In this document: in pieces, positions 40,799 to 60,322 of the stretch
Layout of the letters: each line of letters starts with the position of its first letter
Position numbering within the stretch: position 1 is the stretch's first letter
Source: Candidatus Omnitrophota bacterium
GTDB lineage: Bacteria; Omnitrophota; Gorgyraeia; Gygaellales; Profunditerraquicolaceae
Reading direction: 5' to 3'
DNA: 64,000 bases
Assembly: GCA_028716965.1 (NCBI GenBank)
Contig: JAQUOV010000003.1
Location: forward strand, 140,756-204,755
The notes under the pieces: generated by a model
Database searches by the model: none
Seen by the model: the letters and a program-made list of their open reading frames with translations, nothing else
Told to the model about the DNA's origin: nothing
Made by a program: the position numbers and the translations under genes

Positions 40799-41081
40799 TA
40801 CCTAATGGTATAGAAAACAAAAAAAGTCTTCCCCTTACCCCAGCAGATACTTTCATAATCTTGGCTTTATTTAAGGACATTGTTTTTATTTATTAAAAAG
40901 TTTCTAAAACTTCTTAATAAGATATTAAATAAAAATCCGAGTTGTCAAATATCCTTATTTCCCTTCGACATTCGGCAGCCCGGCTATCCTTTACTTCTGC
41001 TTTTTTAATTTTGGATCCGTGGCTTTGCGCCCCCCGATTACTCGGAGTTTACCTTTTCGTTACTTAACTCTTTACGTTCAA

Positions 41082-42554: not shown

Positions 42555-43796
42555 TTAGGGAAAACATTTAGGGTAATCTATTTTAAACTGGTCTATCTGC
42601 TCCTGCTTCTTTTCAGCCGCGCTTCTGGCTTCAGCCGCTTTTTCTTGAAAATCTTTAGCCTGATCCTCCAAGCTTGGGATCTGTGTTTCTTCTAAATCAT
42701 CAGCTGATTGGTCTGCCTTATCCGCGGATGCATATAAAGAAGCTGCCTTATCGTGTAATTCCTGCGCTTCATCCTCCAATAACGCCGCCGCCGCATTAGC
42801 TAAAGCTGCCTTACTGCGTAGGTCCGCTATATCAAACTCCAGTTGCGCTGCTTCTTCAAGCACACAACAACAACTGCCTTCCCCATCCTCTTCACAACTA
42901 ATCATACAACCACTGCCGCTATAACAGCCCGGGATAGTTGCTTTCTTGATATTGGCTTCATTGCCTTTGTTAGCCGCTTGTGTGTTTAATTCAGCCCCGT
43001 CACTGCGCAGAAGGCCTATCTCTCCTTCCAGTTTAGCTACAATCTCCATCATATAAGGGCAAGACTGGGCCCCTGAGAAACAACCCGGGAAGTTGGTTTT
43101 GTAGAAATCAATATCCGCTTGCTTAGCATTCGCTTGCGCTTCTTTTTCCGCTGCCTGACTGTACAAAGAATCCCTTTCTTTCTCTAATACCGCTATTTCA
43201 TTCATTGTCTGGCAAGCTGGCTCGCTTCCTGATACACAACCACAACCGCTATAACAACTTGGGTTGGCTCTTTTTAAAGCATCCAACTCATTCTTTTTAA
43301 TATCTGCTTGGTCATTAAAACTCTTTGCCTCATTCCTTTTAGCCAGGGCTTGGCTGTCTTTTTGATTAGCCTTGCTTTCATAATCAGCTGCCCGAGTCCT
43401 CAACTGTTCGGCCTGTTCTCTTAATATGGCAATCTGTTTATCTAAATCCGTTGCCGCAGTATTTAAATCAAGCGCAGATTGCTCAAATGATTCCGCGCGC
43501 TCATTTAACTCCTTTATTTCGCCTTCTAATACCTCTATCTTACTTAACAGCCCGGGGCATATATCTTTAGGAGGGATAATCGGTATCGGAGGAGTACCCG
43601 GGGTATCATTATAACTAACCTCCGTAACACCTTTTGCATATTGCTCTCCTTCTCCAAATACATCCGCGCTTTCCCGAAACTTTTGCTGCATTGCCCTTAC
43701 AATATATATCCTCATCCCTATCAGCACTGCCGCTACTATGGCAATCAGGATAACGTACTCTGTAAAAACCTGCGATTTATTTACCTGCTTTTTCAT
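42555..43796 (-). CDS. Flp-family N-terminal module fused to a 360-aa coiled-coil region with repeated Cys motifs (candidate pilus-associated adhesin or tip protein)
   Basis: N-terminus SQVFTEYVILIAIVAAVLIGMRIYIVRAMQQKFRESADVFG is the same family as the small pilins. Repeated ANPSCYSGCGC, FPGCFSGAQSCPYM, IPGCYSGSGC, YPKCFP motifs between coiled-coil blocks. Confidence 0.65.
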   Translation of the reverse strand: MKKQVNKSQVFTEYVILIAIVAAVLIGMRIYIVRAMQQKFRESADVFGEGEQYAKGVTEVSYNDTPGTPPIPIIPPKDICPGLLSKIEVLEGEIKELNERAESFEQSALDLNTAATDLDKQIAILREQAEQLRTRAADYESKANQKDSQALAKRNEAKSFNDQADIKKNELDALKRANPSCYSGCGCVSGSEPACQTMNEIAVLEKERDSLYSQAAEKEAQANAKQADIDFYKTNFPGCFSGAQSCPYMMEIVAKLEGEIGLLRSDGAELNTQAANKGNEANIKKATIPGCYSGSGCMISCEEDGEGSCCCVLEEAAQLEFDIADLRSKAALANAAAALLEDEAQELHDKAASLYASADKADQSADDLEETQIPSLEDQAKDFQEKAAEARSAAEKKQEQIDQFKIDYPKCFP

Positions 43797-44691: not shown

Positions 44692-46074
44692 TTAGTACTT
44701 ATCAACATCTACTATATCGGAACCATACCTTGGATTAGGCGGATCTATGCTTCCTCTTCCTGAAAAATCAGCAACAGCATAACTGGCAGTATCGGGATAA
44801 CGGGTCTTCCATAACCCGAGGTCTGCTCCCTCATGGCTCTGTTTTGTATCAACCCGCGCGAAATGGTCATGGTCAATATCATTTATCCAGCAATCAAAAA
44901 GAAGCAAGGTATCCGCTTCACTACTGCTGCTGAATGTAAGGCCGGGCAATAATCCTGCCAAAGCTAAAACTAACAAAGCAAATGCTGCTGTTCCTGAAAC
45001 AATCGCCGCAGAGTTGCCAGCTATACCGGCAGGCAGCTCAAGCTGTGCCATCGCAGCCAAATCTATACAAGCAGCGCAACAAACAGCCGTTGGGGGCGTA
45101 GGAGGACAGCATGGAGTCTGAGGACAAGCACCAGCTAACTGATCACTAGCGAAACTGTATACTCCTGAAGCTTCAGCTAATTCTAAAGCCGCAGAATCAA
45201 TCAATAACCTGCTCGGAAGAAGTAAAAGAGTTGATATTGCCAAGGGTGGCAAGACCGTAATAGTTAACTCAAACGTATTGACATTTTTAGTAAACACATT
45301 GGAATCCACTGAATGGGACCTTCCCGGAACATCTTTCTGTCCGTCTTTCCAGGAATAATTATAGTGCCCGTTATCTCCTATGCCATCCATAAAATCAACG
45401 TAGGAATCCCTATAGCCGTTCTTTTTTAAGGTATCTGTGACATCTTCGGGAGAGCTTCCTGCCTTTAATTTAGAGCTAATACCGCTGTTAGAGAAAACAA
45501 ACCCATGCCCATTCTTGATAGCCGAACTCCTGCCTTTTATTGCCATGCGCCTGATACGAAGATAAAGATAATACTGGGCAATGCTGGCAGCGGTAATCGC
45601 AAGCCCAATAGCAATAATAGCAGTGCTGGCATCTTCTAATATTCCTGCTGCCGTCAGAGAAAGTCCGGTTGCAACATAAGCGTCGGACGCTGCAGCGCAA
45701 GAAGTAGTGCAAAAGGATGTTGCTTCAGCTGTTATTCCAAGAGATAATGCAGTTGATGCGTACGAATAAGCCATTACCAAGTTATAGAAAACAAACATGA
45801 AGGAAAGGGCTATGGACATATAAGCTGACCAATATGTAGTTATCATAAGGCTGTTTTGCACAGCCACGCTGTTAAACACATTTGCCATTATCGCCCCTGT
45901 TGCCAGGGCTCCGGCATCAGCAGCGTTGGAAGTATCTGTCTTGGTCATCGCCACCTTAGATAAGTTAACAGTAACCAGAGCCATAATTATCACGATCACC
46001 AGGACCAGTATGTATACAGGGGCAAGCTGGCCTTTGTTGTATTTATTTTTGTGATCATGGAAATACGTAAACAT
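44692..46074 (-). CDS. Membrane protein, possibly TadG-like pilus assembly protein; Cys/Pro-rich segment
   Basis: ATG 46074 with GGAGAG Shine-Dalgarno. N-terminus NKGQLAPVYILVLVIVII resembles the Tad_N/TadG N-term; CPQTPCCPPTPPTAVCCAAC. Confidence 0.45.
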   Translation of the reverse strand: MFTYFHDHKNKYNKGQLAPVYILVLVIVIIMALVTVNLSKVAMTKTDTSNAADAGALATGAIMANVFNSVAVQNSLMITTYWSAYMSIALSFMFVFYNLVMAYSYASTALSLGITAEATSFCTTSCAAASDAYVATGLSLTAAGILEDASTAIIAIGLAITAASIAQYYLYLRIRRMAIKGRSSAIKNGHGFVFSNSGISSKLKAGSSPEDVTDTLKKNGYRDSYVDFMDGIGDNGHYNYSWKDGQKDVPGRSHSVDSNVFTKNVNTFELTITVLPPLAISTLLLLPSRLLIDSAALELAEASGVYSFASDQLAGACPQTPCCPPTPPTAVCCAACIDLAAMAQLELPAGIAGNSAAIVSGTAAFALLVLALAGLLPGLTFSSSSEADTLLLFDCWINDIDHDHFARVDTKQSHEGADLGLWKTRYPDTASYAVADFSGRGSIDPPNPRYGSDIVDVDKY

Positions 46075-46076: not shown

Positions 46077-46349
46077 CTACTCTCCTCTTAAAACCTTATC
46101 TTCCGTCAGCTCCTCCGGTTTATGAACCGGCCACTGCAGGGTATAAGTATCAGAGGATGTCCCCGCGATTACCCTGCCGGCATTATAACTCTGCTGGCGC
46201 TGCACAATCTGCTTATTTGCCCAGAACCATATCTGCATTATCGCAGCAAACAAGAGCACTATCCCGGCAAAAACAAATGCTATTTCAATCATGCTTTGCG
46301 CAATTTCATCGCGCTTTAACTTTTTTAACCCTAAAACGGAGTAACCCAT
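46077..46349 (-). CDS. TadE-like pseudopilin
   Basis: RDEIAQSMIEIAFVFAGIVLLF matches the TadE_N consensus. Confidence 0.6.
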   Translation of the reverse strand: MGYSVLGLKKLKRDEIAQSMIEIAFVFAGIVLLFAAIMQIWFWANKQIVQRQQSYNAGRVIAGTSSDTYTLQWPVHKPEELTEDKVLRGE

Positions 46350-47113
46350 GTCTTCTCCCTGACTACCTCATTACCTGAATTACTCTGGCTATATTTATAC
46401 TGCCCGTCTGGATCAAGGTACACACCCTGCTTCACCTCATACAATATTCCCTCTTCTATTGGGGGGCTTTCATAATCGTTATCACCGGACTTCTTCTCTA
46501 CTATCTTGTACGGCACGGCAGTAACAATATCATCTTTAAGCCTAGAGGTCCTTTTATTGGTAATAGCATAGGTATCCTCGCTCTTCACATTCGTCTCGTT
46601 AAAAAGAGTATCGGACTCGGTATTCATATTTTCAGTTTGCAATACCCAATACGTCGCTCTTTCCTCGCCTGTTTCCGGATCTATCCTTTCGTGCCCTTTA
46701 ATATAATCATTATACTTAAATACTCCTTCGTCTTCATTGACCCTGAATACAAGCAAGCTGTCCGCAGATGAGCCTTTTGCCGATTTAGGTATAGCCCAAT
46801 ATACACTGGCAGAACCTGTTTGCGTAACATTACTGCCCTGCCTATAACCACCTGCCAGGTTTATCTGGTGCCTGTTCTGTAGAAGGGTATACTGCACAGA
46901 TGCCCCTGCGCCGTCTTCAGCGTATCCAGTATAGGAGTTAGCCTTCTCTAACGCCCTGCGAAAAGCCTCCATCTGCACATATTGCCTGTCATTAAGTTGC
47001 TGTATAAAAGAAAGCAGCGCCCCAAATACAAGCAATATCAAGGTGCCGAATATTGCCATCTCCGCTACTGCCTGGCCTTTCTTATTCGCGCATATCACTT
47101 TAATCACCGCCAT
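46331..47113 (-). CDS. TadE/TadG-like pseudopilin (start trimmed to ATG 47113; track ORF extended to 47227)
   Basis: KKGQAVAEMAIFGTLILLVFG, a TadE-like motif right after the chosen start. Confidence 0.55.
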   Translation of the reverse strand: MAVIKVICANKKGQAVAEMAIFGTLILLVFGALLSFIQQLNDRQYVQMEAFRRALEKANSYTGYAEDGAGASVQYTLLQNRHQINLAGGYRQGSNVTQTGSASVYWAIPKSAKGSSADSLLVFRVNEDEGVFKYNDYIKGHERIDPETGEERATYWVLQTENMNTESDTLFNETNVKSEDTYAITNKRTSRLKDDIVTAVPYKIVEKKSGDNDYESPPIEEGILYEVKQGVYLDPDGQYKYSQSNSGNEVVREKTWVTPF

Positions 47114-47540
47114 CCTCTTCAATCTCTTCGCCTGTTTCAGGGTCGTATTCAATCTCCGGGCCAGGAGCAACATATCCTTCTGAAGCAGGGACAAGATTTC
47201 CCGGCGTATCAGGAACATCTGTATCAACTATTCTACTTGTTACCTTATAGCTCACTTCCTCCAAACCTGAAACGCGCAAACCTCCACCCGTGAATAATTG
47301 GGTATCGGTAGTTAAATCATATTTACTTTCAGCATTACTTTCAGTTCTAGCAGTAGGGGAGATATCCGTCTCCTGTCCCTTTCCTATAAATACATCTGTT
47401 AAATCTTTGACCTTCCCCTGTATGCCGCGCTTAACATAAATATTCATTCCCCACAGCACCGCGGAGATTATTCCTAAAACTATCATATACTCCGCAAAAG
47501 AAGCAGAGGCCCTGCTTAGAATAACCTTCCCCTTTTTCAT
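47100..47540 (-). CDS. Flp-family pilin paralog with C-terminal acidic extension (start ATG 47540)
   Basis: MKKGKVILSRASASFAEYMIVLGIISAVLWGMNIYVKRGIQGK; starts 2 nt after the stop of the upstream gene. Confidence 0.6.
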   Translation of the reverse strand: MKKGKVILSRASASFAEYMIVLGIISAVLWGMNIYVKRGIQGKVKDLTDVFIGKGQETDISPTARTESNAESKYDLTTDTQLFTGGGLRVSGLEEVSYKVTSRIVDTDVPDTPGNLVPASEGYVAPGPEIEYDPETGEEIEEDGGD

Positions 47541-47541
47541 C

Positions 47542-47886
47542 TTACCACCTCGCCGGCTCCGCGCTAAAAGGCAAAACCTCTTCTTCGCGGCTGGTTGCGC
47601 GGCCACTTTCTATCTTGGTATCCATAATACTTTTCTTGTAATCAGTGCTATCCTCCAAATCAGTAACATAAGAATTACTTTGTATACTGACTGTGGTATC
47701 AATCGTAGTAGTAGAATCCTGCATTGCCCCGGGAGAATAAAAATAACCTCCTCCTACCTCATCAGCTGAACTCCGCATCCTGCCTGCAAGGCCACGTTTA
47801 AGATAGACCTGCATAGCGAAAAGCGCGGCCACGATTAAACTGACCATAACCACATATTCTATCGTAGATTGGGCAATATTCTTCAT
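47542..47886 (-). CDS. Flp-family pilin paralog (start ATG 47886)
   Basis: MKNIAQSTIEYVVMVSLIVAALFAMQVYLKRGLAGRMRSSADEVGG. Confidence 0.65.
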   Translation of the reverse strand: MKNIAQSTIEYVVMVSLIVAALFAMQVYLKRGLAGRMRSSADEVGGGYFYSPGAMQDSTTTIDTTVSIQSNSYVTDLEDSTDYKKSIMDTKIESGRATSREEEVLPFSAEPARW

Positions 47887-47896
47887 TTTCGCCCCT

Positions 47897-48061
47897 TTAT
47901 CTCTTGGATTCATTTAATTCCACCTGAATCTGTTTTAAGCGCGCGTTTATGGAGCGTTGTATATACTGGCGCATCGCCAATAAGGCCGTGACAATAACCA
48001 TAATCAGCATAGTATATTCCAGAAAATTCTGTGCGCGCCTGTTGTAAAAGGTATTTAACAT
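47897..48061 (-). CDS. Small Flp-family pilin, 54 aa (below the ORF-track length cutoff)
   Basis: Hand translation: MLNTFYNRRAQNFLEYTMLIMVIVTALLAMRQYIQRSINARLKQIQVELNESKR; GGGGAG/AAGGGA Shine-Dalgarno. Confidence 0.6.
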   Translation of the reverse strand: MLNTFYNRRAQNFLEYTMLIMVIVTALLAMRQYIQRSINARLKQIQVELNESKR

Positions 48062-48078
48062 TCCCTTACTCCCCTTCT

Positions 48079-48228
48079 TTATTTTAGATACGCCACACCC
48101 TTGTTGAAGTAATTATAAAAGGCGTCGCGTACGGTATCTATAAAGCCAGTAGATACTGCCAATGCCATCAGCAATGCAAGGACCACGAAATATTCAATTA
48201 CACTTTGCCCCTTAATCTTTCTTTTCAT
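48079..48228 (-). CDS. Small Flp pilin, 49 aa, canonical G/QSVIEY motif (below the ORF-track cutoff)
   Basis: Hand translation: MKRKIKGQSVIEYFVVLALLMALAVSTGFIDTVRDAFYNYFNKGVAYLK; starts 2 nt after the TadC stop. Confidence 0.65.
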   Translation of the reverse strand: MKRKIKGQSVIEYFVVLALLMALAVSTGFIDTVRDAFYNYFNKGVAYLK

Positions 48229-48230
48229 CT

Positions 48231-49139
48231 TTAAAACCCAAAGTTAATCCCGCCGCGGGCAAACTGCAGGATGATCGGGCCTCCCACAATAATCATTACT
48301 ACCGGCAAAATAAAGGCAAACAAAGGAAAGAGCAGTTTAATCGGCGCTTTTAATGCCATTGATTCGCCGTGCTGGAACCTCCTTACCCTCATCTCCTCTG
48401 CCTGTACATTTAAAGCCTCGGACATAGGCGTACCCATGCGGTCAGCCTGTATAAGCGTACGCACAAAAGAATGCACTTCAGGGATATCCACGCGCCAACC
48501 GAAATTCTTTAAGGCCTCCCGCCTGCTTTTGCCGACCTGCGTCTCGCGGTAAACCTCCCCTAATTCCCTGGTCAGGTCGCATGGTTTCAAATCTTTAACC
48601 ACGCGGTTTACCGCCAACATGAAATCCATACCACCGCTGACACAAAGGGTCAATAGGTCAATGATATTGGGCAGGTCACGCCGTATATTGTGCACTCTTT
48701 TGGATATCTTTTGATTAAGCCACATCTCCGGGATAAAGAAACCTATGGCCAAAGAAATAATCAAAATCATATTCGTCGGCATGTTGCTGCTAAAGAAGGT
48801 AAACGCAATAACCGGAACAAAGATTATCGCCAACACCTTAAATGCCAAGAACTCCAGCACCCCCATCGGCAACCCGGCTTTAATCAGCCTCCTCCTTATC
48901 GCCTCTATTGAAAAAGGGATACGCCTTTCAAAATCCTTAAACCTGGCGGTAAGAGGCAGCCAAGCATTCTCCGGCTTTACCGTGTATTTGTCCTGGCTTA
49001 ACTCCATCTCTACCTTATCATTATCAAATATCTGAGCAGGCAGGCGCATCTTTTCCAGGCCGAATATCTTAGAACCGAACTGCAACAGCACAAGATAGAT
49101 GCTGGCAGTTAAAAGTAAAACCACTAAAGCTAATGTCAT
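48231..49139 (-). CDS. TadC-like inner-membrane platform protein (T2SS-F domain)
   Basis: T2SSF-like LPNIIDLLTLCVSGGMDFMLAV ... TPMSEAL plus TM helices. Confidence 0.75.
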   Translation of the reverse strand: MTLALVVLLLTASIYLVLLQFGSKIFGLEKMRLPAQIFDNDKVEMELSQDKYTVKPENAWLPLTARFKDFERRIPFSIEAIRRRLIKAGLPMGVLEFLAFKVLAIIFVPVIAFTFFSSNMPTNMILIISLAIGFFIPEMWLNQKISKRVHNIRRDLPNIIDLLTLCVSGGMDFMLAVNRVVKDLKPCDLTRELGEVYRETQVGKSRREALKNFGWRVDIPEVHSFVRTLIQADRMGTPMSEALNVQAEEMRVRRFQHGESMALKAPIKLLFPLFAFILPVVMIIVGGPIILQFARGGINFGF

Positions 49140-49151
49140 CCAGATTCTCCT

Positions 49152-50003
49152 TTATATATCCACCCTGCTTAATTTACGTATAAAAATAATACCAAGTATT
49201 TCAGAAACAATCGCGTAACCCATAAGGCCTCTTCCGAAGTTATCTTTAATGAACACGTCAAAAAAACCTGGATTCACCTTATACACAAATATCCCGAATA
49301 AGATAGGCAATATCGACATAATTATCCCCTGCATGTTTGCCTGCACGCAGAGGGCCTGGACCCTTCCAATAAGCTTATTCCTCTCCTGGATAGTATAGAT
49401 TACCCTGGAAAATGTCTGGGTAAGGTCTCCTCCGGTCTCCCTGGCTACCAGCATCGCGGTTACAACCATATCCAGTTCATCCAGGCGCATACGCTTCTTA
49501 AGCTTAGTCATCGCCTCCTCAAGAGAAACACCCATCTGCATCTGGCGTATGACAAGGCCAAACTCCTGGCTGATGGGGTTAGGCATCTCCTGCGCCAACT
49601 CCTCAAATGACTGCAAGAGGCTTAACCCCGCCTTAAGAGAGCTGGATAGAATCATTAACCCGTCAACAAGCTGCGAGGCGAATTTTTGCCTGCGTAAAGC
49701 TTCAAGCCGCTTGACGACAAAAATAGGAATAGCCAACCCCGCTGCTGCCGCCGCCGCGGCAACCCATATATTATAGGTAATGAAAAAACCCAATAACCCA
49801 CTTATTATAGGTGAAAGCACATCGATCAGCAGCAGCTTGTTTAACGTGATATCCAGAAACATGCTGTTTAACTTCGGGGTTATTTTATCCAACCTTTTCC
49901 TTTGCCAGCGATCCATTAAGGTTTCAAGAAAAGGATAAGACAGATTAATAAGATAAAAAACCCCAAAGAAGACCACTGCGAACAACAGTATCTTTGTCAG
50001 CAT
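49152..50003 (-). CDS. TadB-like inner-membrane platform protein (T2SS-F domain); alternative GTG start at 50009
   Basis: ILSSSLKAGLSLLQSFEELAQ ... VARETGGDLTQTFSRV; GGAG Shine-Dalgarno before ATG 50003. Confidence 0.75.
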   Translation of the reverse strand: MLTKILLFAVVFFGVFYLINLSYPFLETLMDRWQRKRLDKITPKLNSMFLDITLNKLLLIDVLSPIISGLLGFFITYNIWVAAAAAAAGLAIPIFVVKRLEALRRQKFASQLVDGLMILSSSLKAGLSLLQSFEELAQEMPNPISQEFGLVIRQMQMGVSLEEAMTKLKKRMRLDELDMVVTAMLVARETGGDLTQTFSRVIYTIQERNKLIGRVQALCVQANMQGIIMSILPILFGIFVYKVNPGFFDVFIKDNFGRGLMGYAIVSEILGIIFIRKLSRVDI

Positions 50004-50033
50004 TTGCACAACTCCATATTTGTACTTATCGCA

Positions 50034-50360
50034 TTACTTCCACCAGAACTCCTGGTCAGAAGTAGCAACTGATTCGCTTGTAGTTTTATCACTCGTTTGG
50101 CCATCAGTCGGGATCGTAGATACAGTTTGCTTATCTTTAAGTACCTCGCTAGATTCGGTACTGCTGGTAGTTGTATAATGCCCCGTGGTGTAACCCGGTG
50201 AAAACTGTTGGCCCATACTATCGGCACTTTCTCTTAATTTACCCTGGTATCCTCTCTTAAGATAAACCTGCATTGCGATAAGTCCGGCGACGATCACCCC
50301 GATCAAAATAGCATACTCCAATGTTGTCTGCGCCTTATTCCGCTTAAATTTGTTAAACAT
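50034..50360 (-). CDS. Flp-family pilin paralog with S/T-rich C-terminal extension (start ATG 50360)
   Basis: MFNKFKRNKAQTTLEYAILIGVIVAGLIAMQVYLKRGYQGKLRESADSMG; AAGGAGGTGA Shine-Dalgarno. Confidence 0.7.
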   Translation of the reverse strand: MFNKFKRNKAQTTLEYAILIGVIVAGLIAMQVYLKRGYQGKLRESADSMGQQFSPGYTTGHYTTTSSTESSEVLKDKQTVSTIPTDGQTSDKTTSESVATSDQEFWWK

Positions 50361-50388
50361 AAAACTCACCTCCTTAATCATTATATTT

Positions 50389-50727
50389 TTATTCTTCCTT
50401 AGGTACCAATATCGTCTGAGAACCACCTCTCCTGCTAGCATCGGTAGAACTCCTGGTGACCGCACCTCCAGTTAGCAAATCTTCATCTTCACTTGAGTTG
50501 CGCTTGCTGCTAAAATCTGATTCTAAATAATAGGGCTCATATTGCTTAGTTGTAAAGGTCACCGAATCTCCTGATGCGCCTCCGTAGTCAACATAATTCA
50601 CCGCGTCCTTGATCCTGCCCTGGAAACCCCTCTTAACATAAGTCTGCATACCTATTACTGCAGCAACTATTAACCCCAGCACGATAACATACTCTGCCGT
50701 GCTCTGCGCTCTTATATTCCTTAACAT
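50389..50727 (-). CDS. Flp-family pilin paralog (start ATG 50727)
   Basis: MLRNIRAQSTAEYVIVLGLIVAAVIGMQTYVKRGFQGRIKD; GGAGGTGA Shine-Dalgarno. Confidence 0.7.
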   Translation of the reverse strand: MLRNIRAQSTAEYVIVLGLIVAAVIGMQTYVKRGFQGRIKDAVNYVDYGGASGDSVTFTTKQYEPYYLESDFSSKRNSSEDEDLLTGGAVTRSSTDASRRGGSQTILVPKEE

Positions 50728-50753
50728 TTTCAATCACCTCCTTAAGAATTGCC

Positions 50754-50927
50754 TTATTCGAAATTAACATGGTTGACCGCGGTCTCCGCCTGCGTCGCCA
50801 CATGATCAAGCATATTATTCATTTTCGGCTTGATAATCGAGTTTGCGGCCAAGATTACTGCCCCTATAATCGCCGTGAAGATAATAATGTATTCAAGAGT
50901 ACTCTGCGCCTTTTTCTGCTTTAACAT
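50754..50927 (-). CDS. Flp-family pilin, 57 aa (start ATG 50927); candidate major pilin
   Basis: MLKQKKAQSTLEYIIIFTAIIGAVILAANS...; GGGGGTGA Shine-Dalgarno. Confidence 0.7.
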   Translation of the reverse strand: MLKQKKAQSTLEYIIIFTAIIGAVILAANSIIKPKMNNMLDHVATQAETAVNHVNFE

Positions 50928-50961
50928 TTTTCTCACCCCCTCTCTAAGATTTTCTGAAACT

Positions 50962-51021: not shown

Positions 51022-51230
51022 CTCGCTAAGCCGGCTAATATTCTGGCCTGACCTAATATAAGATAATCAAAGAAAACAAATTTTGGCGTATATAGTCCCG
51101 TGGCCTTGCGCATCCACTTTCCTCCGATAGCGGAATTGCTTTTTTCTTATTACTTTTAAAATGCACCTAAAATATAACACCTATTAGTAAGCATGTCAAT
51201 AATACTTAACCTCCTTTAAGAAAGCGTTTT

Positions 51231-52844: not shown

Positions 52845-52932
52845 ATTTTCTCCAGATTGGACATTATTAGCCAATATTAATGTACAATAAAATAGTCAAT
52901 ATGTCAACAATAATTCAGTTTGGACATTATTA

Positions 52933-52990
52933 GGGACGCTTTTGCACCTAAAGCAGGGACGTTTCTTAGCCTAATCGGAAAACTGTCCCC
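52933..52990 (-). repeat. REP-like element copy B (inverted relative to A and C)
   Basis: Reverse complement GGGGACAGTTTTCCGATTAGGCTAAGAAACGTCCCTGCTTTAGGTGCAAAAGCGTCCC matches copies A and C. Confidence 0.8.
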
Positions 52991-53057
52991 CCCCCTCCAG
53001 GAATATTTTGTTAGATTTTATTATATTGCAGCGTCTATTATAGCGGAGGTGATAAAT

Positions 53058-53598: not shown

Positions 53599-53942
53599 TA
53601 ATCTATTAAGGTGATGTGGTCGCCTGTTTGGGTAGAGGTTCTTTCCAGGGTTCCTGCGGGAAGTTCAATACTAAATAGCGCGTTTAAATAAATACCGCTT
53701 ATCCTAAACGGCCGCATACTGCGGATCTCCCTTGTAATTCTGTTATTGGAATCAACAAAGATTACGTCTATGGCAAATTGCATAAAGAAAGTGTGGATTG
53801 AATTACAGGGTTTGATTATTAAAGCTTGTCCTTGTTTAAGCTCCCTGCGGTTTAACAAGCCAACCATCCTTCTTAACGGAGTTTTGGCAATAGCCGCATC
53901 CTCTGCTAAGCTTGTACCGCGGTCTTTGTTGATTATTTTCAT
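53598..53942 (-). CDS. DUF192-family protein
   Basis: HTFFMQFAIDVIFVD matches the DUF192 core; the ATG overlaps the TGA of the upstream ATPase gene (ATGA). Confidence 0.65.
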   Translation of the reverse strand: MKIINKDRGTSLAEDAAIAKTPLRRMVGLLNRRELKQGQALIIKPCNSIHTFFMQFAIDVIFVDSNNRITREIRSMRPFRISGIYLNALFSIELPAGTLERTSTQTGDHITLID

Positions 53943-56101
53943 AAAGAAGGGTTAAAAATATCGTCGGAGATCGAGATGCCCTGCACCCTGAGCTGTTCCA
54001 CAAAAGAGGGGATGTAACCTGTAGGTTTGAATTCACCAAGGACTTTGCCGTCCTTGTCCACTCCTGTCTGTTTGAATATAAAAATATCCTTTAAACCAAC
54101 ATGCACCTCATCAATCATGCCGATCATCTCTGAAACCTGCGTTACCTTTCTTGAACCATCGGATAACCTGGCAGTATGGATAATAATATTGATTGCCGAG
54201 GCGATCATCTCCCTGATTGCACGCACAGGAAGTTCTGCCCCCGACATAAGGATCATAGAATCCATCCTGGAGATAACGTCCCGGGTTGAATTCGCATGTA
54301 TCGTAGTCATAGATCCGTCGTGGCCTGTATTCATTGCCTGAAGCATATCCAGAGTCTCCGCCCCACGGCACTCGCCGATTATAATCCTATCGGGGCGCAT
54401 ACGCAGAGAATTGCGGAAAAGGTCCCTGGAGGTAATCGCGCCTTTCCCTTCAACGTTAGGAGGCCGTGATTCAAGGCGCACCCAATGTTCCTGTTTTAAT
54501 TTCAATTCCGCAGCATCTTCAATAGTGATAATACGCTCAGTAGGCGGGATAAATACTGACAGCACATTCAATACGGTTGTTTTACCCGAGCCCGTCCCAC
54601 CGGAAACAATTGTATTCTTTCTGGATAAGATACATGCCTGCATAAAATCAGCCATGGGTTTGGTTAAAGTATTTAAACGTAATAAGTCGTCCGTAACCAG
54701 CCGCTCGCGTCCAAATTTTCTTATAGTCAGCGTAGGGCCGGTTAAAGAAAGCGGAGGGATGATCGCGTTAACGCGTGAGCCGTCGGAAAGCCGGGCGTCC
54801 ACCATGGGGGCGCTTTCATCAATGCGCCTGCCTAAAGGAGCGATTATACGTTCAATAACCTGGCGTACCTGTTCATTGGAAAGGAACCTCTTGGGGGATA
54901 ACTCTATTCTGCCGTGGCGCTCAATGTATATCTGGTTTTTATTATTGACCATGATATCGGAAATATCCGAATCATTGACTAAATCCTCCAGTGGCCCAAG
55001 CCCCAATGCCTCATCAATTATCTCTTTGACCAGCCTTTTCCTTACATCGGAAGGAGAAAGGAACACCCCGGTTTCTTCCGCCAGGGCATTGGTAATTACC
55101 TTCTCGGTTTTTTCTTTTACGGCCTGAGCCTTGGCCGGGTCACTCATATCAATCTCTAAATGCTTAAGGTCAAGTTTTTCAATCAACCTTTGATGTATGC
55201 GCTTCTTTAATTCAATGATCTCATCCGGCTCCCTATCTTCACCTTCCGGGGTAAAAGCCTCATGGCCTAATTTAAATTTCTTCCAGAAATCCCCCTCTTT
55301 TGCAAAAAAACCCTCGCCTGCTGCAGAAGGCAAGGCAATCTCCTGTCGCTTAAGAAATAAACTCTCATCCTCGCTAAGCAGTGTGGCTAATTTCTTAATA
55401 CTTTGGCTGGCTCTACAATTAAGGTTGTCTATGACAAGTGGTATCCGCCTGTTTAATGCTAAACCCGCAGCCTTGCCTTCTGAAGATATACGGCTGATTA
55501 TCTCGCATGGCACAGCAGCACGCACCTCCTGCCAGATAACCCCGCCTAAGCTCTGGGCGCGGTTTAAAATGATCTTAATCATGCCCAAGGGGATATAGAG
55601 CGACTGCAAAATATCCAAAGACCACTTTGTTTGATAGACGGATAATATATCCGGTGTTACTACCAAAAGTACAAGGTTGGCGTGGTTGAAGACGGAAAAC
55701 AGGCTTTCGGTAAAAGCGCGTCCGGCGTCTATGATTATATAGTCATACTCCTTTTCCAACGCATCCAGAACAAGCTTGATCTTTTCGCTGTCTACACGAA
55801 ATATCTGGTTGGGTTTTAATACTGCGGGAAGGAAATCAATACTGTATTTCTCAATATAAATCAGGTCTCCTTTTACGGAGGCCTTTGTGGGGTCCTTTTT
55901 CAATGCCTCTGCCAAATCAAGCAGCGATTTGTCAGCCGTAATATCAAGCCAGCGGGGCATGTCTCCTGCGCCCTGTAAATCTAAATCAATAAGCGCTACT
56001 TTTTTACGCAGGTAATAACCCAGGCTGACAGCCAAATTCGTCGCAAGCAAGGTTTTGCCTACCCCGCCCTTTGTGCTGAATATGACTATTGTTTTTGACA
56101 T
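53939..56101 (-). CDS. Fusion protein: N-terminal TadZ/CpaE-like ParA/MinD ATPase domain plus C-terminal TadA/CpaF secretion ATPase
   Basis: N-term IVIFSTKGGVGKT (deviant Walker A). C-term VSGGTGSGKTT, RMRPDRIIIGECRG, AMNTGHDGSMTTIHANS (VirB11/CpaF family). Confidence 0.85.
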   Translation of the reverse strand: MSKTIVIFSTKGGVGKTLLATNLAVSLGYYLRKKVALIDLDLQGAGDMPRWLDITADKSLLDLAEALKKDPTKASVKGDLIYIEKYSIDFLPAVLKPNQIFRVDSEKIKLVLDALEKEYDYIIIDAGRAFTESLFSVFNHANLVLLVVTPDILSVYQTKWSLDILQSLYIPLGMIKIILNRAQSLGGVIWQEVRAAVPCEIISRISSEGKAAGLALNRRIPLVIDNLNCRASQSIKKLATLLSEDESLFLKRQEIALPSAAGEGFFAKEGDFWKKFKLGHEAFTPEGEDREPDEIIELKKRIHQRLIEKLDLKHLEIDMSDPAKAQAVKEKTEKVITNALAEETGVFLSPSDVRKRLVKEIIDEALGLGPLEDLVNDSDISDIMVNNKNQIYIERHGRIELSPKRFLSNEQVRQVIERIIAPLGRRIDESAPMVDARLSDGSRVNAIIPPLSLTGPTLTIRKFGRERLVTDDLLRLNTLTKPMADFMQACILSRKNTIVSGGTGSGKTTVLNVLSVFIPPTERIITIEDAAELKLKQEHWVRLESRPPNVEGKGAITSRDLFRNSLRMRPDRIIIGECRGAETLDMLQAMNTGHDGSMTTIHANSTRDVISRMDSMILMSGAELPVRAIREMIASAINIIIHTARLSDGSRKVTQVSEMIGMIDEVHVGLKDIFIFKQTGVDKDGKVLGEFKPTGYIPSFVEQLRVQGISISDDIFNPSL

Positions 56102-56110: not shown

Positions 56111-57718
56111 TTAATTATTTCTAAAGTCTATCGGTACATCAACCCAAAGTTCCTGAGATTCTATCTGGGGAGGGAAAGGAGGATAAGGCGCCTGTTTTTT
56201 GGCTATATCATAAGCAGCGTCATCTAAAACCTTATAGCCCGAAGATTGCACTAATTTGATGCCTTTTAAAGCCCCGCTTGCGGTAATATTAAGGTTCAGC
56301 CGTACATTACCTTCCCAACCCGCGTTCTTGGCTTGTTGGGGATAATAAGCTGATTTAACTATCTTTGATTTAACTATCCGTACATAATTTCCGAGACTTC
56401 CCGGTAACTCCGGCTCGTTAAAAGATTCTTGTTTTTTCTCCGCGACAGAATCGGAAGAAGGTTTCTTCCCTTTAGGCTCATCCCGAGCGACTATAGTAGG
56501 TACGAGTGTAACGAATAATTCCGTATCATCTCTTGCCCCTTGCCCTTTCCCTATTTTAGTTACTCTTTGCCTGAAGAATAAGCCTAAAACCGGGATATCC
56601 GCAAGCCAAGGGAATTTACGCAGGTCTTCTTCTGTCTTTTGCTTAATCAAGCCGCCTATTGCCATGATCTGGCCGTTATTAAGGTAAAGTTCGCTGGAGA
56701 CGGAACGCTTGCTCAAAGGATATGCCTTAGCAGTAGGCGCGTCTTCTGATCCCAGGATCTCAGCTTCCCCTACGTCACTGACCTCTACATACAAATTTAA
56801 TTTTATTCGGTCATCTTCGGTTACAGAAGGCTTTATCTTTAACTTAATGCCGTATTCTTTATATTCCACGTTTGTGGAGGAGCTGCCTCCTGTTGACACG
56901 GCTGTAGTGAAAACAGGTTTTTCACCTCCCACAAGCAATTGTGCTTCTTTATTAGTTTGACAAGATAGCCGAGGACGAGAGAGAATACGCGCCTTGCCTT
57001 CCTGTATTAAAGCATCCAGCTTTAAAGTAAATGCGGCGCGGGTTATATTGGCAACATGAAATAACTTTCCCCAGGTTGTCCCTGCCGCTTGAATACCTGA
57101 AGAACCCACTTCAGTTAAGGTCATTGAACCCGGCCATGAAAACCCAAGGGTCTTGGTAGCATCTTTATTAAGCTCCAGTATCTGCACATCAATTTCTATT
57201 ACTGTTTCCTCTTCTTTGACCTCGACAAGATCAGATATCTTATCTTTAAGGTCGTTTAAGGCCAAGGCGATCCTTTCTTTATCCTTGGAAGTCTTTACCC
57301 TGCCCAAAATAATGACTTTTCCTTCGTCCTCTTCTGCCTTGGTATAAACCTCCGGCAAATCCAATTGGCCTAATAAATTATCCACCCGCTGCTTGATCAA
57401 GGTCATATCTTCCCTTATTACTTTTATATTTTCGGACTGCTCGCCAAAAGTATCCCAGTATACCAATGAAGTCTGTCCTGGTGATTTTGCGGAAAGAGCG
57501 ATCTCTGTTTCAGTGACATTAGAAATATCCGCTACCAGGGGATTACCGATAATGACCCTGGTGGGCATTTGCGTAGGGATTATTTTGGTCTCCCCCACAA
57601 GTAATTTTAATGTTTCCTGCGGGGCGTCGCCGGCTAATATGGGACCCACCAATACCAGCATCAAGACCGGAATCAAGCTTACCATGATAAAAGCGTTTAT
57701 TTTCTTACACATATTCAT
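56111..57718 (-). CDS. Secretin (CpaC/RcpA-like) with C-terminal TonB_C domain
   Basis: Secretin core LLVGGEKPV ... FPWLADIPVLGLFFRQR ... ELFVTLVPTIV. C-terminus YYPQQAKNAGWEGNVRLNLNITASGALKGIKLVQSSGYKVLDDAAYDIAKKQAPYPPFP matches the TonB C-terminal consensus. Confidence 0.85.
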   Translation of the reverse strand: MNMCKKINAFIMVSLIPVLMLVLVGPILAGDAPQETLKLLVGETKIIPTQMPTRVIIGNPLVADISNVTETEIALSAKSPGQTSLVYWDTFGEQSENIKVIREDMTLIKQRVDNLLGQLDLPEVYTKAEEDEGKVIILGRVKTSKDKERIALALNDLKDKISDLVEVKEEETVIEIDVQILELNKDATKTLGFSWPGSMTLTEVGSSGIQAAGTTWGKLFHVANITRAAFTLKLDALIQEGKARILSRPRLSCQTNKEAQLLVGGEKPVFTTAVSTGGSSSTNVEYKEYGIKLKIKPSVTEDDRIKLNLYVEVSDVGEAEILGSEDAPTAKAYPLSKRSVSSELYLNNGQIMAIGGLIKQKTEEDLRKFPWLADIPVLGLFFRQRVTKIGKGQGARDDTELFVTLVPTIVARDEPKGKKPSSDSVAEKKQESFNEPELPGSLGNYVRIVKSKIVKSAYYPQQAKNAGWEGNVRLNLNITASGALKGIKLVQSSGYKVLDDAAYDIAKKQAPYPPFPPQIESQELWVDVPIDFRNN

Positions 57719-57726: not shown

Positions 57727-58599
57727 TTATTCCAGAACCTTGATTTCCTTGTTTAAGCCACGGTAAATCTCAACGGTTTTCTTGGGTTTAGGAGGCACAA
57801 CTACAGGTTTTTCCTGCTGCTGAAAAGCCTGCGGCATCACGGTTCTGAACAAAGTATCCCAGCTTGCCGGAGTTACCTGTTGCAACTGCGTATCCCCGGG
57901 AGAACGCAGGATCAGCCGGATTTTACCCTGCTCTTGCACAAAAACAATAAGGTTCGCCTCCTGAGGCGATAAAGCAAAGGTTATGGCCGGAGCTATTGCT
58001 GCCGCTTTTTCTTCTTTTTTCCCACCCTGCATAAACTCCTGGCCGACAGCTAAAACTAAGACATCCTGGAATAAAGGCATAGTAGCCAATTGATTTACTT
58101 GTTTTCCTTCAGCATTCATTGCCGGAATAGGCACCATACCTACGATATCAACATGATCCCCAGGCCTGATCATACCTCCGACTGAAGAGATGTTATCTAC
58201 GGGAACAGTTACCGCTCTTTTGCCTGCAGGTACCTTCATGGATAAAGACCCTATCTCGCCGGAGATTGTAACCTTGTTCAAAAGCACCTGTTCACCTTTG
58301 TCTATAGGAGCAATGGTAATCTTATCCACAACCCTGTCTATGGATGCCGCCGAGCGGGGCTGAACCATATTCCTATTAACCGTTATCTCTGCAAGCATGG
58401 ATTCTTTTATTGCGGTGCCGGCCGGTATACTCTGCTTAGCCACTACTACGGTAGTGAGATTCTTCTGGCTTTGCGCTACCATCCTTTTTGCTTCTTCGGT
58501 CTGATGCTGGATATAATTATTGATCAGCACTACCGCAATTAAACCGCAAACTCCGCTAATCAGCAACGGCAGGTATTTCTTAAAGGCTTGAATTTGCAT
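57727..58599 (-). CDS. CpaB/RcpC-like Flp pilus assembly protein (SAF domain)
   Basis: N-terminal TM; VVVAKQSIPAGTAI; RAVTVPVD...GGMIRPGDHVDIV. Confidence 0.75.
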   Translation of the reverse strand: MQIQAFKKYLPLLISGVCGLIAVVLINNYIQHQTEEAKRMVAQSQKNLTTVVVAKQSIPAGTAIKESMLAEITVNRNMVQPRSAASIDRVVDKITIAPIDKGEQVLLNKVTISGEIGSLSMKVPAGKRAVTVPVDNISSVGGMIRPGDHVDIVGMVPIPAMNAEGKQVNQLATMPLFQDVLVLAVGQEFMQGGKKEEKAAAIAPAITFALSPQEANLIVFVQEQGKIRLILRSPGDTQLQQVTPASWDTLFRTVMPQAFQQQEKPVVVPPKPKKTVEIYRGLNKEIKVLE

Positions 58600-60315: not shown

Positions 60316-60322
60316 GTCTGCC

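What the first reader, a model, noticed from the sequence alone, without database searches (positions are those of the whole stretch)
47100..50927. Eight Flp-family pilin paralogs sharing an extended N-terminal module, mostly with Ala where the Flp cleavage Gly is expected
The canonical Flp prepilin site is G/xxxxEY. Here only one pilin (48079..48228) has KGQSVIEY; the others read KAQSTLEY, RAQSTAEY, KAQTTLEY, IAQSTIEY, RAQNFLEY, ASFAEY and SQVFTEY. All share a downstream signature A..(I/L)..MQ.Y(L/V)KRG.QG..(R/K)(E/D)SAD and carry C-terminal extensions from 0 to about 360 aa. No prepilin peptidase gene is present in the window. This may be an atypical processing specificity or an unprocessed pilin class.
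Basis: seen in the sequence. Interest (0 to 1): 0.7.

Follow-up and report, generated by a model that had tools for sequence, protein, structure and literature searches.

The report
Omnitrophota Tad pilins with Ala/Gly cleavage site
The eight small genes are real pilin-type subunits of a tight-adherence (Tad) pilus machine in an uncultured Omnitrophota bacterium. Alanine in place of glycine at the predicted cutting site is a common, freely interchangeable variant across this phylum and is a known acceptable substitute, so it is not evidence of a new processing mechanism.

Summary
Eight ORFs with a basic leader, a small residue, xxxxEY and a hydrophobic helix lie on the minus strand. Shuffled sequence gives 0.08. 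Seven are inside 47100-50927. The eighth (SQVFTEY) is at 42555-43796. Ala is at -1 in five, Gly in one and Ser in one. One is ambiguous between Ser and Ala.

The window is a Candidatus Omnitrophica contig. It carries the conserved Tad-like locus (PPIase, RcpC, secretin, TadZ-TadA, TadB, TadC, TadE/F/G-like) upstream of a giant gene of more than 13,600 aa. This locus has already been described, including its small class III signal peptide genes.

In 80 species-representative genomes, 609 pilin-like ORFs have Gly (56%), Ala (41%) or Ser (1%) at -1, and Gln at +1 in 90%. Genomes range from all-Gly to all-Ala, and orthologues flip between G, A and S. Reviews state that prepilin peptidases accept Ala.

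The pilins match the archaeal-type Class_IIIsignal model better than Flp. No A24 peptidase lies in the window or within 10 kb of any related locus. The rest of the genome could not be searched.

Verdict: an ordinary member of a known kind, with low interest.

The parts
50754..50936 (-). P1. A 60-aa pilin-like protein with predicted site MRKMLKQKKA|QSTLEY. It is Flp-sized, lacks the MQxYxKRG signature, and is the first gene after a near-consensus promoter.
   Evidence: ORF. Pfam Class_IIIsignal 26.1 bits against a cutoff of 23.7. Ala at -1 in every orthologue found in L001-L006.
50389..50733 (-). P2. A 114-aa pilin-like protein, ...RNIRA|QSTAEY, with the MQTYVKRGFQGRIKD signature and a Ser/Thr/Asp-rich tail.
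50034..50360 (-). P3. A 108-aa pilin-like protein, MFNKFKRNKA|QTTLEY, with the MQVYLKRGYQGKLRESAD signature and a Ser/Thr-rich tail. It is 100% identical to NCBI PHT50_02520.
   Evidence: The AlphaFold2 model has a helix at residues 13-49 followed by low-confidence strands (mean pLDDT 63).
49152..50009 (-). TadB-like platform protein.
   Evidence: Pfam T2SSF, E = 1.2e-18.
48231..49139 (-). TadC-like platform protein.
   Evidence: Pfam T2SSF, E = 2.4e-13.
48079..48228 (-). P4. A 49-aa pilin, MKRKIKG|QSVIEY. It is the only one of the eight with Gly at -1. It is Flp-sized and lacks the MQxYxKRG signature.
   Evidence: Gly is conserved in the orthologues in L001-L005. The gene is not called in several relatives' annotations.
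47897..48061 (-). P5. A 54-aa pilin, MLNTFYNRRA|QNFLEY, with a degenerate signature (MRQYIQRS).
47542..47886 (-). P6. A 114-aa pilin-like protein, MKNIA|QSTIEY, with the MQVYLKRGLAGRMRSSAD signature.
   Evidence: The orthologue in L002 has Gly (KGQGTIEY).
47100..47540 (-). P7. A 146-aa pilin-like protein, ...LSRAS|ASFAEY, with Ser or Ala at -1 and no Gln at +1. It has the MNIYVKRGIQGKVKD signature.
46331..47113 (-). TadE-like minor pilin, 260 aa, ...NKKG|QAVAEM.
   Evidence: Pfam TadE at E = 0.088, below the cutoff. Motif and synteny.
46077..46349 (-). TadF-like small pilin-like protein, 90 aa, ...DEIA|QSMIEI.
   Evidence: No Pfam family matched. The TadF label is inferred from position and N-terminus.
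44692..46074 (-). TadG-like protein, 460 aa.
   Evidence: Pfam Tad (TadE/G-like) 29.1 bits against a cutoff of 22.3.
42555..43796 (-). P8. A 413-aa protein with the same pilin N-terminal module (MKKQVNKS|QVFTEY ... MRIYIVRAMQQKFRESAD) and a coiled-coil extension of about 365 aa with repeated Cys motifs. It lies outside the finding's interval.
   Evidence: Orthologues have Ala at -1.
53939..56101 (-). TadZ-like ParA domain fused to a TadA/CpaF-type ATPase, 720 aa.
   Evidence: Pfam T2SSE at 1.1e-60 plus AAA_31, ParA and CbiA. NCBIfam TadA-family ATPase at 1.6e-98.
56111..57718 (-). RcpA/CpaC-type secretin with a C-terminal TonB_C domain.
   Evidence: Pfam Secretin, T2SS-T3SS_pil_N and TonB_C.
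57727..58599 (-). RcpC/CpaB.
   Evidence: Pfam RcpC at 4e-26 and SAF.
58603..59529 (-). SurA/PrsA-like peptidyl-prolyl isomerase, the first gene of the conserved locus.
   Evidence: Pfam Rotamase_2. Synteny.
51171..51199 (-). Near-consensus sigma-70-type promoter match (TTGACA, 17 nt, TATATT, with TG) upstream of P1.
   Evidence: This is a consensus match only.
2..40801 (-). Giant ORF of more than 13,600 aa that runs off the window. It has an N-terminal membrane anchor and a C39-like peptidase domain, and lies directly downstream of the tad locus.
   Evidence: Genes of 16,184 to 20,329 aa sit at the same place in relatives.

Best explanation
The eight genes encode prepilins with class III (type IV prepilin-like) signal peptides. 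They belong to a Tad-type (type IVc) pilus machine that is conserved in Omnitrophota immediately upstream of giant surface-protein genes.

Anatomy of each protein:
- a short basic leader of about 5-13 residues
- a small residue at -1 (Ala, Gly or Ser)
- nearly always Gln at +1, Glu at +5 and Tyr at +6
- an alpha-1 helix of about 37 residues

The hydrophobic first half of the helix anchors the subunit in the membrane and later forms the filament core. In most paralogues the amphipathic second half carries the conserved M-Q-x-Y-x-K-R-G-x-Q-G...SAD motif.

Inferred mechanism:
1. The prepilins insert into the inner membrane.
2. An aspartic prepilin peptidase of family A24, encoded elsewhere in the genome, cleaves between [A/G/S] and Gln at the cytoplasmic face. 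Ala is simply a tolerated alternative to Gly.
3. The TadB/TadC platform, driven by the TadZ-TadA fusion ATPase, assembles the mature subunits.
4. The fibre is extruded through the RcpC/secretin channel.

The short paralogues P1, P4 and P5 are Flp-sized fibre or adapter subunits. P1 follows the strongest promoter match. P2, P3, P6, P7 and P8 are the same Flp-like core carrying variable C-terminal decorations, and most likely act as minor or surface-decorating subunits. They would work together with the TadE/F/G-like tip proteins, as in the multi-pilin Kil Tad pilus of Myxococcus.

Shown here: gene content, motifs, the conservation pattern, and the absence of a linked peptidase. Inferred: cleavage, the cleaving enzyme, the filament roles and the link to predation.
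For: Machine components were identified by Pfam and NCBIfam.

Evidence on the pilin N-termini:
- P1 passes Class_IIIsignal and P3 is sub-threshold.
- 31 of 149 family representatives match Class_IIIsignal and 14 match Flp_Fap.
- The N-terminal module finds 4,716 cluster representatives at E <= 1e-3 and 883 at E <= 1e-10. In the top 149, -1 is A 84, G 63 and S 2, and +1 is Gln in 147.
- 609 pilin-like ORFs in 80 species loci have -1 as G 340, A 247, S 6 and other 16, and +1 as Gln in 551.
- The per-genome Ala fraction runs from 0 to 1. V. archaeovorus LiM reads GGAGGGGG.
- Orthologues swap G, A and S.
- A-type and G-type genes share the same -2 K/R and the same leader length.

A constraint to a small residue at -1, a basic residue at -2 and Glu at +5, across paralogues that are otherwise only 17-56% identical over the module, is the signature of a recognised cleavage site.

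Literature:
- Cleavage occurs 'at a glycine or alanine' (PMC3244431).
- Ala is 'an acceptable substitute' (PMC2913515).
- Tad loci without tadV exist in predators: all Bdellovibrio genomes lack tadV (PMC5430801).
- A multi-pilin Tad pilus has a major Flp, adapters and TadEFG tips, and some of its pilins are probably processed by an unlinked peptidase (PMC12075869).
- Tad complexes in Omnitrophota are described in PMC10066038.

The AlphaFold2 model of P3 has a long N-terminal helix at residues 13-49.
Against: - No A24 peptidase gene was found in the window or within +/-10 kb of the pilin genes in 90 related loci. These include V. archaeovorus LiM.
- I could not search the rest of any of these genomes, so the cleaving enzyme is unidentified.
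- None of the eight proteins matches Pfam Flp_Fap.
- The model outside the helix has low confidence.
- No experimental N-terminus is available for any member.
- The assignment of major versus minor roles rests only on size, gene order and one promoter match.
Confidence: 0.75

Rival explanations
1. The pilins are processed by a dedicated peptidase with an archaeal EppA-like recognition code ([K/R][A/G]|Q...E5). This would still be an A24 enzyme, but with a specificity unlike TadV or PilD, and it would be encoded away from the locus. The near-invariant +1 Gln would be the real determinant, and -1 would only need to be small.
For: - +1 Gln occurs in 147 of 149 representatives and in 551 of 609 ORFs.
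- The best Pfam match is the archaeal-type Class_IIIsignal model, and IMG labels many members 'UPF0333 family'.
- In Methanococcus, EppA needs +1 Gln and its substrates have an acidic +5 (PMC4390842, PMC4187195, PMC2913515).
- No tadV is linked in any of the 80 species loci.
Against: - No such peptidase was identified.
- Gln at +1 may equally reflect filament packing or N-terminal chemistry rather than peptidase specificity.
- 14 of 149 relatives also match Flp_Fap, so the family sits between the two models.
Confidence: 0.15
2. The Ala-type proteins are an unprocessed pilin-like class. They would stay membrane-anchored with their leader, or be assembled uncleaved.
For: There is no peptidase gene in the window or near any related locus. 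Bdellovibrio carries a trimmed Flp2 that starts directly at MxxEY and needs no cleavage (PMC5430801).
Against: - If the site were not recognised, nothing would hold -1 to G/A/S (97%) and -2 to K/R.
- Ala-type and Gly-type are orthologous and interchange, so they cannot be separate functional classes.
- Leaders are present, 3-24 residues in the top representatives, and are not trimmed.
Confidence: 0.04
3. A protease outside the A24 family removes the leaders. Candidates would be a conserved uncharacterised gene of the locus, or the C39-like domain of the downstream giant protein.
For: - Several conserved genes of unknown function sit in the locus. These are the 547-aa protein, DUF192, the AF_1845-like 301-aa protein and the 357-aa protein.
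- The giant protein has a C39-like peptidase domain next to its membrane anchor.
- The leader faces the cytoplasm, so a non-intramembrane enzyme is conceivable (inference).
Against: - The 547-aa protein has only an IS630-like HTH and no membrane segment.
- C39 peptidases cut after double-glycine-type leaders (general knowledge), whereas -2 here is Lys or Arg.
- No protease signature was found in the other unknowns.
- Every characterised class III signal peptide is cut by an A24 enzyme (PMC2913515).
Confidence: 0.05

Closest known systems
Flp pilins of Tad (type IVc) pili, such as Aggregatibacter Flp1 and Caulobacter PilA, processed by TadV/CpaA
   Same: - Encoded in a locus with TadA, TadB, TadC, RcpA, RcpC and TadE/F/G-like genes.
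- Short basic leader, Glu at +5, Tyr at +6 and a hydrophobic helix.
- P1, P4 and P5 are Flp-sized.
   Different: - None of the eight matches Pfam Flp_Fap.
- -1 is mostly Ala and +1 is almost always Gln.
- Five paralogues carry a conserved MQxYxKRGxQG...SAD motif and tails of 50-365 aa.
- No tadV is in the locus.
Archaeal class III signal peptide proteins / EppA-dependent (Epd) pilins of Methanococcus maripaludis (Pfam PF04021)
   Same: - [K/R][G/A]|Q with an acidic +5.
- P1 passes the PF04021 gathering score, and 31 of 149 relatives match it.
- Multiple pilin paralogues per system.
   Different: - The host is a bacterium with an outer-membrane secretin and RcpC.
- Tyr at +6 is Flp-like.
- No EppA homologue has been identified.
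Kil Tad pilus of Myxococcus xanthus (PMC12075869)
   Same: - A Tad machine in a predatory bacterium with one major Flp, small Flp 'adapter' pilins and several TadE/F/G-like tip sets.
- Part of its pilin set is probably processed by an unlinked peptidase.
   Different: - Kil pilins have the canonical G/XXXXE site.
- The Kil gene sets are dispersed, whereas here all paralogues lie in one operon-like locus beside a giant gene.
Bdellovibrio Tad locus (PMC5430801)
   Same: A predator Tad locus with several flp genes and no tadV in the locus or the genome. Omnitrophota TadB/C group with Bdellovibrionales (PMC10066038).
   Different: Bdellovibrio Flp proteins keep GXXXXEY, apart from the trimmed Flp2.
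Conserved 'type II secretion-like' locus upstream of Omnitrophota giant genes (bioRxiv 10.1101/2023.11.21.568195; also 10.64898/2026.06.07.730766)
   Same: [quoted passage not shown]
   Different: In the passages I read, those papers do not analyse the cleavage-site residues or the shared N-terminal module.

Membership tests
Flp/Fap pilin family (Pfam PF04964) | Match to the Flp_Fap profile | tested here: not met
   No Flp_Fap hit for any of the eight at E <= 1. 14 of 149 family representatives match at E <= 0.01.
Flp/Fap pilin family (Pfam PF04964) | G/XXXXEY processing motif followed by a hydrophobic stretch | tested here: inconclusive
   E5, Y6 and the hydrophobic stretch are present in 8 of 8. 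Gly at -1 is present only in P4, and the others have Ala or Ser.
Flp/Fap pilin family (Pfam PF04964) | Encoded within a tad locus (TadA, TadB, TadC, RcpA, RcpC, TadE/F/G) | tested here: met
Flp/Fap pilin family (Pfam PF04964) | Small (about 50-80 aa), fully alpha-helical | tested here: inconclusive
   The size criterion is met by P1 (60 aa), P4 (49 aa) and P5 (54 aa). It is not met by P2, P3, P6, P7 (108-146 aa) or P8 (413 aa). The P3 model is a helix plus low-confidence strands. The short paralogues were not modelled.
Flp/Fap pilin family (Pfam PF04964) | Leader removed by a TadV/CpaA-type A24 peptidase | not testable with these tools
   No A24 gene is in the window or in 90 related loci.
Class III signal peptide proteins (Pfam PF04021) | Match to the Class_IIIsignal profile at or above the gathering score | tested here: inconclusive
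   P1 scores 26.1 bits against a cutoff of 23.7, so it is met. P3 scores 18.7 bits, below the cutoff. The other six have no hit. 31 of 149 relatives hit at E <= 0.01.
Class III signal peptide proteins (Pfam PF04021) | [K/R][G/A] then Gln at +1 and an acidic +5 (EppA-substrate pattern) | tested here: met
   Six of the eight window proteins have Gln at +1 with Gly or Ala at -1. P8 has Gln at +1 but Ser at -1, and P7 lacks Gln at +1. P6 has Ile rather than Lys/Arg at -2. All eight have Glu at +5. Family-wide, Gln is at +1 in 90-99%.
Class III signal peptide proteins (Pfam PF04021) | Processing by an archaeal-type peptidase (EppA, FlaK or PibD) | not testable with these tools
   No peptidase was identified.
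TadE/TadF pseudopilins (Pfam PF07811) | Match to the TadE profile (for 46331-47113 and 46077-46349) | tested here: inconclusive
   46331-47113 scores E = 0.088 and 13.4 bits against a cutoff of 22.9. 46077-46349 has no hit. A related small gene in L009 has a weak TadE hit.
Type IVa / T2SS (pseudo)pilins with an N-methylation motif | G|F(T/S)LxE N-terminal motif or the N_methyl profile | tested here: not met
   No such Pfam or NCBIfam hit. +1 is Gln, not Phe or Met.

The most novel reading that the evidence does not exclude
Omnitrophota Tad-like machines may use an archaeal-type recognition code ([K/R][A/G]|Q...E5-Y6) whose peptidase is never linked to the locus. It was absent within +/-10 kb in all 80 species examined. 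In lineages that also lack type IVa pili, the enzyme could be a divergent or non-A24 protease. Alternatively the pilins could function as a pseudopilus dedicated to exporting or presenting the adjacent giant protein rather than as an adhesive fibre.
Probability: 0.12. Interest if true: 0.55.

Novelty: new member of a known kind. Interest (0 to 1): 0.2.

Why it matters
It matters little for pilin-processing biology. Ala at -1 is inside the known tolerance of prepilin peptidases, and in this phylum it alternates freely with Gly.

The practical value is for annotation:
- About 70% of this large pilin family matches no Pfam model. The family has 4,716 representatives at 50% identity.
- Some members, such as P4, are missed by gene callers.
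- Motif scanners that insist on Gly would miss about 40% of the subunits of the pilus machine that accompanies Omnitrophota giant genes.

The unresolved identity of the peptidase is the only real open point.

Tried and rejected
1. Walking along the window's own contig to look for an A24 gene failed. Exact-protein look-ups of two window proteins and of P0001 were 'not on record', so this MAG is absent from the gene-position index.
2. KO tables in the supplement of PMC10066038. The stored file is truncated. It shows pilD (K02654) in two Omnitrophota genomes (ids 58 and 231; 231 also has cpaF). The one Tad-bearing genome listed (221) is cut off before that KO, so no conclusion is possible.
3. I scanned 1.46 Mb of loci for an A24 peptidase. 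I used phmmer with P. aeruginosa PilD written from memory, GxGD-type motif searches, and an inventory of all multi-TM ORFs. Only TadB, TadC, TadG-like proteins, transporters and wrong-frame artefacts turned up. Sensitivity with a single remembered PilD query is limited.
4. A PDB sequence search with the N-terminal profile gave only insignificant hits to the Geobacter PilA-N leader region (E about 0.7).
5. The AlphaFold2 model of P3 is confident only for the helix, so no fold search was run.
6. Primary papers on PibD, FlaFind and V. archaeovorus are not held in the library. Reviews were used instead.
7. I considered that the 547-aa gene and the Y1 transposase gene mark an IS insertion splitting the operon. 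I rejected this because both are conserved in place across relatives.
8. I considered that the giant protein might itself start with a pilin-like signal. It does not.
9. I ran no further search on A24 peptidases. Only the top 120 hits are listed, and they would not be from this phylum.

Full report
**What is in the sequence**

The minus strand between 59529 and 41446 carries one co-oriented gene array. In order, it contains:
- a SurA/PrsA-like PPIase (58603-59529)
- RcpC/CpaB (57727-58599)
- an RcpA-type secretin with a C-terminal TonB_C domain (56111-57718)
- a TadZ-like ParA domain fused to a TadA-type ATPase (53939-56101)
- a DUF192 gene (about 53601-53942)
- a RAYT-like Y1 transposase gene on the opposite strand (52920-53540)
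- a 547-aa protein with an IS630-like HTH (51231-52874)
- three pilin-like genes, P1-P3 (50936 down to 50034)
- TadB (49152-50009) and TadC (48231-49139)
- four more pilin-like genes, P4-P7 (48228 down to 47100)
- a TadE-like gene (46331-47113), a small TadF-like gene (46077-46349) and a TadG-like gene (44692-46074)
- a 301-aa secreted protein (43777-44682)
- an eighth pilin-like gene, P8, with a long coiled-coil tail (42555-43796)
- a 357-aa Gly/Ser-rich protein (41446-42519)
- one stop-free frame of more than 13,600 codons (40801 down to 2) that runs off the window

**Checking the observation**

All eight quoted motifs exist. Seven lie inside 47100-50927. The SQVFTEY protein is P8 at 42555-43796. 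A six-frame scan for [GAS]xxxxE[YF] plus ten hydrophobic residues finds 8 matches in the window. One hundred shuffles give 0.08 +/- 0.31. A slightly stricter form of the pattern placed every window match in this locus on the minus strand.

With Glu as +5, the -1 residue is:
- Ala in P1, P2, P3, P5 and P6
- Gly in P4
- Ser in P8
- Ser in P7, or Ala if P7 has a one-residue register shift; its orthologues read RRA|SSFMEY

The TadE-like and TadF-like genes carry KG|QAVAEM and IA|QSMIEI. The shared downstream signature (M-Q/R/N-x-Y-x-K/V-R-G/A ... R/K-x-S-A-D) is clear in P2, P3, P6, P7 and P8. It is degenerate in P5 and absent from P1 and P4. Extensions range from none (P4, 49 aa) to about 365 aa (P8).

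No Peptidase_A24 gene is in the window. This rests on Pfam scans of the tad-locus and flanking ORFs of at least 120 aa, and on a PilD phmmer search and a GxGD motif scan over all stop-free stretches of at least 100 aa. None of the locus's unknown proteins is polytopic.

**Where the window comes from**

P3 is 100% identical to NCBI protein PHT50_02520 of a 'Candidatus Omnitrophica bacterium' MAG, on a 222,180-bp contig. The 120 listed homologues carry Omnitrophica/Omnitrophota names wherever a name exists. Some are annotated 'class III signal peptide-containing protein', 'Flp pilus assembly pilin Flp' or 'UPF0333 family'.

**What the proteins are**

None of the eight matches Pfam Flp_Fap. P1 passes the gathering score of PF04021 Class_IIIsignal (26.1 against 23.7 bits) and P3 is sub-threshold at 18.7 bits. 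A profile of the eight N-terminal modules finds 4,716 cluster representatives (50% identity level) at E <= 1e-3 and 883 at E <= 1e-10.

Of the top 149 representatives:
- 31 match Class_IIIsignal
- 14 match Flp_Fap
- 11 match DUF4244
- about 100 match nothing at E <= 0.01

The family therefore lies between the archaeal-type class III model and Flp, and is largely unmodelled. AlphaFold2 on P3 with 120 homologues gives one long helix (residues 13-49) followed by low-confidence strands (mean pLDDT 63). The 'extended N-terminal module' is therefore the whole alpha-1 helix: a hydrophobic half plus a conserved amphipathic half. That amounts to a Flp-like core to which variable tails are attached. This last step is inference.

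**Is Ala at -1 unusual?**

It is not unusual in this family. Four lines of evidence support that.

1. Among 120 P3 homologues, -1 is Ala in 104 and Gly in 16.
2. In six syntenic loci from related MAGs, single paralogues flip. P6 is Ala in the window, L001 and L004 but Gly in L002. P8 is Ser in the window and Ala elsewhere. P4 and the TadE-like gene are always Gly.
3. In the top 149 representatives, -1 is A 84, G 63 and S 2. +1 is Gln in 147, and -2 is Lys or Arg in 131.
4. A scan of GTDB species representatives returned 80 loci. They include the V. archaeovorus LiM chromosome.
   - These loci hold 609 pilin-like ORFs, with a median of about 8 per locus.
   - -1 is G 340, A 247, S 6 and other 16. 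The 'other' cases are mostly register shifts or unrelated membrane proteins.
   - +1 is Gln in 551.

Per genome, the Ala fraction runs continuously from 0 to 1. Examples are L040 (GGGGGGGG), V. archaeovorus (GGAGGGGG) and L064 (AAAAAA). The window sits at 0.71. The spread is wider than binomial (SD 0.28 against 0.18), which fits lineage-level drift.

Ala-type and Gly-type genes have the same -2 residue usage, leader length (median 9 against 10) and +2 to +4 preferences in broad terms. Nothing marks the Ala-type as a separate class.

The literature agrees on four points:
- Prepilin peptidases cleave 'at a glycine or alanine' (PMC3244431).
- The near-invariant +1 Gln recalls substrates of the Methanococcus pilin peptidase EppA. 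EppA needs +1 Gln, and its substrates have an acidic +5 (PMC4390842, PMC4187195).
- The unlinked peptidase also has precedent. All Bdellovibrio genomes lack tadV (PMC5430801), and in Myxococcus KilP and Tip1 are probably processed by another peptidase (PMC12075869).

**The peptidase question**

None of the syntenic loci with precomputed Pfam annotation has a Peptidase_A24 gene within +/-10 kb. Across 91 sequences (1.46 Mb) three checks were run: a PilD phmmer search, motif scans, and an inventory of every ORF with four or more hydrophobic segments. They found only TadB, TadC, TadG-like proteins, transporters and frame artefacts.

The locus therefore never carries its peptidase. I could not search whole genomes. 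The window's MAG is not in the gene-position index. The only KO tables available are truncated. They show pilD in two other Omnitrophota genomes and nothing usable for the one listed genome with a full set of Tad genes. Whether this genome encodes an A24 enzyme remains untested.

**Context already in the literature**

The locus and its link to the giant gene are conserved. Relatives have genes of 16,184 to 20,329 aa at the same position. tblastn finds the following among the 80 species loci:
- the 547-aa protein in 67
- TadB in 63 and TadC in 62
- the ATPase in 56
- the secretin in 49
- the giant protein's N-terminus in 28 (within the limited flanks)

West-Roberts et al. (bioRxiv 10.1101/2023.11.21.568195) describe this arrangement. 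They report a secretion system of more than ten subunits with gspD/E/F-like genes, rcpC and a Rotamase_2 PPIase. [quoted passage not shown] Seymour et al. (PMC10066038) describe Tad complexes in Omnitrophota and link them to predation. A 2026 preprint (10.64898/2026.06.07.730766) again finds secretion or pilus genes flanking 13 of 14 giants. In the passages I read, none of them analyses the cleavage-site residues.

**Most likely mechanism**

The eight proteins are class III signal peptide prepilins of a Tad-type machine. An unlinked A24 peptidase removes the basic leader between the small -1 residue and Gln +1. TadB/TadC and the TadZ-TadA ATPase assemble the subunits through Glu5-dependent packing, and the RcpC/secretin channel lets the fibre out.

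P1 is the first gene after a near-consensus promoter match at 51199 to 51171. P1 and the always-Gly P4 are the best candidates for fibre or adapter subunits. The tailed paralogues and the TadE/F/G-like proteins most likely form minor or tip complexes, by analogy with the Kil pilus (PMC12075869).

Gene content, motifs and conservation are shown. Cleavage, the enzyme and the subunit roles are inferred. Confidence is about 0.75.

The rivals are an EppA-like specificity (0.15), a non-A24 protease (0.05) and no processing (0.04). The last of these is contradicted by the strict small-residue and basic-residue constraint around the site, and by the G/A interchange between orthologues.

**Verdict**

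The feature is a common, interchangeable variant within a known and previously noted gene family, and it lies inside the documented tolerance of prepilin peptidases. It is a new member of a known kind, and interest is low (0.2). The one open point worth a follow-up is which peptidase serves these loci.

Noticed in passing
window 2-40801 (-): A single stop-free frame of more than 13,600 codons runs off the window, directly downstream of the tad locus. Its N-terminus has a membrane anchor and a C39-like peptidase domain. Relatives have genes of 16,184 to 20,329 aa at the same place. This is known from the Omnitrophota giant-gene papers.
   Followed up: partly
window 51231-52874 (-) and 52920-53540 (+): A 547-aa protein with an IS630-like HTH and a RAYT-like Y1 tyrosine transposase gene sit between the ATPase and the pilin genes. 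They are not a recent insertion. Both are at the same place in related MAGs, and the 547-aa protein is found in 67 of 80 species loci. They may be domesticated regulators of the pilin genes.
   Followed up: partly
window 56111-57718 (-): The RcpA-type secretin carries a TonB_C domain at its C-terminus, in this window and in every relative inspected. This is an unusual fusion for a Tad secretin.
   Followed up: no
window 53939-56101 (-): A TadZ-like ParA/MinD domain is fused to the TadA ATPase in one 720-aa protein. The fusion is conserved in all relatives inspected.
   Followed up: no
window about 53601-53942 (-): A DUF192 gene overlaps the ATPase stop codon. It is conserved at this position in the relatives inspected, and its function is unknown.
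   Followed up: no
window 48079-48228 (-); L001 12147, L002 12145, L004 12132: The 49-aa Gly-type pilin P4 is conserved, but it is not called as a gene in the annotations of several related MAGs.
   Followed up: partly
window 42555-43796 (-): The tail of P8 consists of coiled-coil segments separated by repeated P-(G/S)-C-(Y/F)-S-G...C cysteine motifs. Its length varies from about 56 to 407 residues among relatives.
   Followed up: no
L086 (JAIWAR010000014.1), L043, L065, L090 and many 'uncultured Planctomycetia' loci: Contigs labelled Methanosarcinales archaeon, Deltaproteobacteria, Eubacteriales or Planctomycetia carry pilin genes of this Omnitrophota family. On L086, L065 and L025 tblastn also found other genes of the tad locus. 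These labels are probably binning or naming errors. The Methanosarcinales case is notable because V. archaeovorus preys on Methanosaeta.
   Followed up: partly
80 species loci (L011-L090): The fraction of Ala at -1 per genome is over-dispersed (SD 0.28 against 0.18 expected). It correlates negatively with locus G+C content (r = -0.48), although the Gly and Ala codons do not differ in G+C at their first two positions. Phylogenetic structure is the probable cause, but this is untested.
   Followed up: no
window 60287-63930 (+): A FIST-domain protein, a histidine kinase and a response regulator with a GGDEF domain are divergently placed upstream of the tad locus. This could be a c-di-GMP control module.
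   Followed up: no
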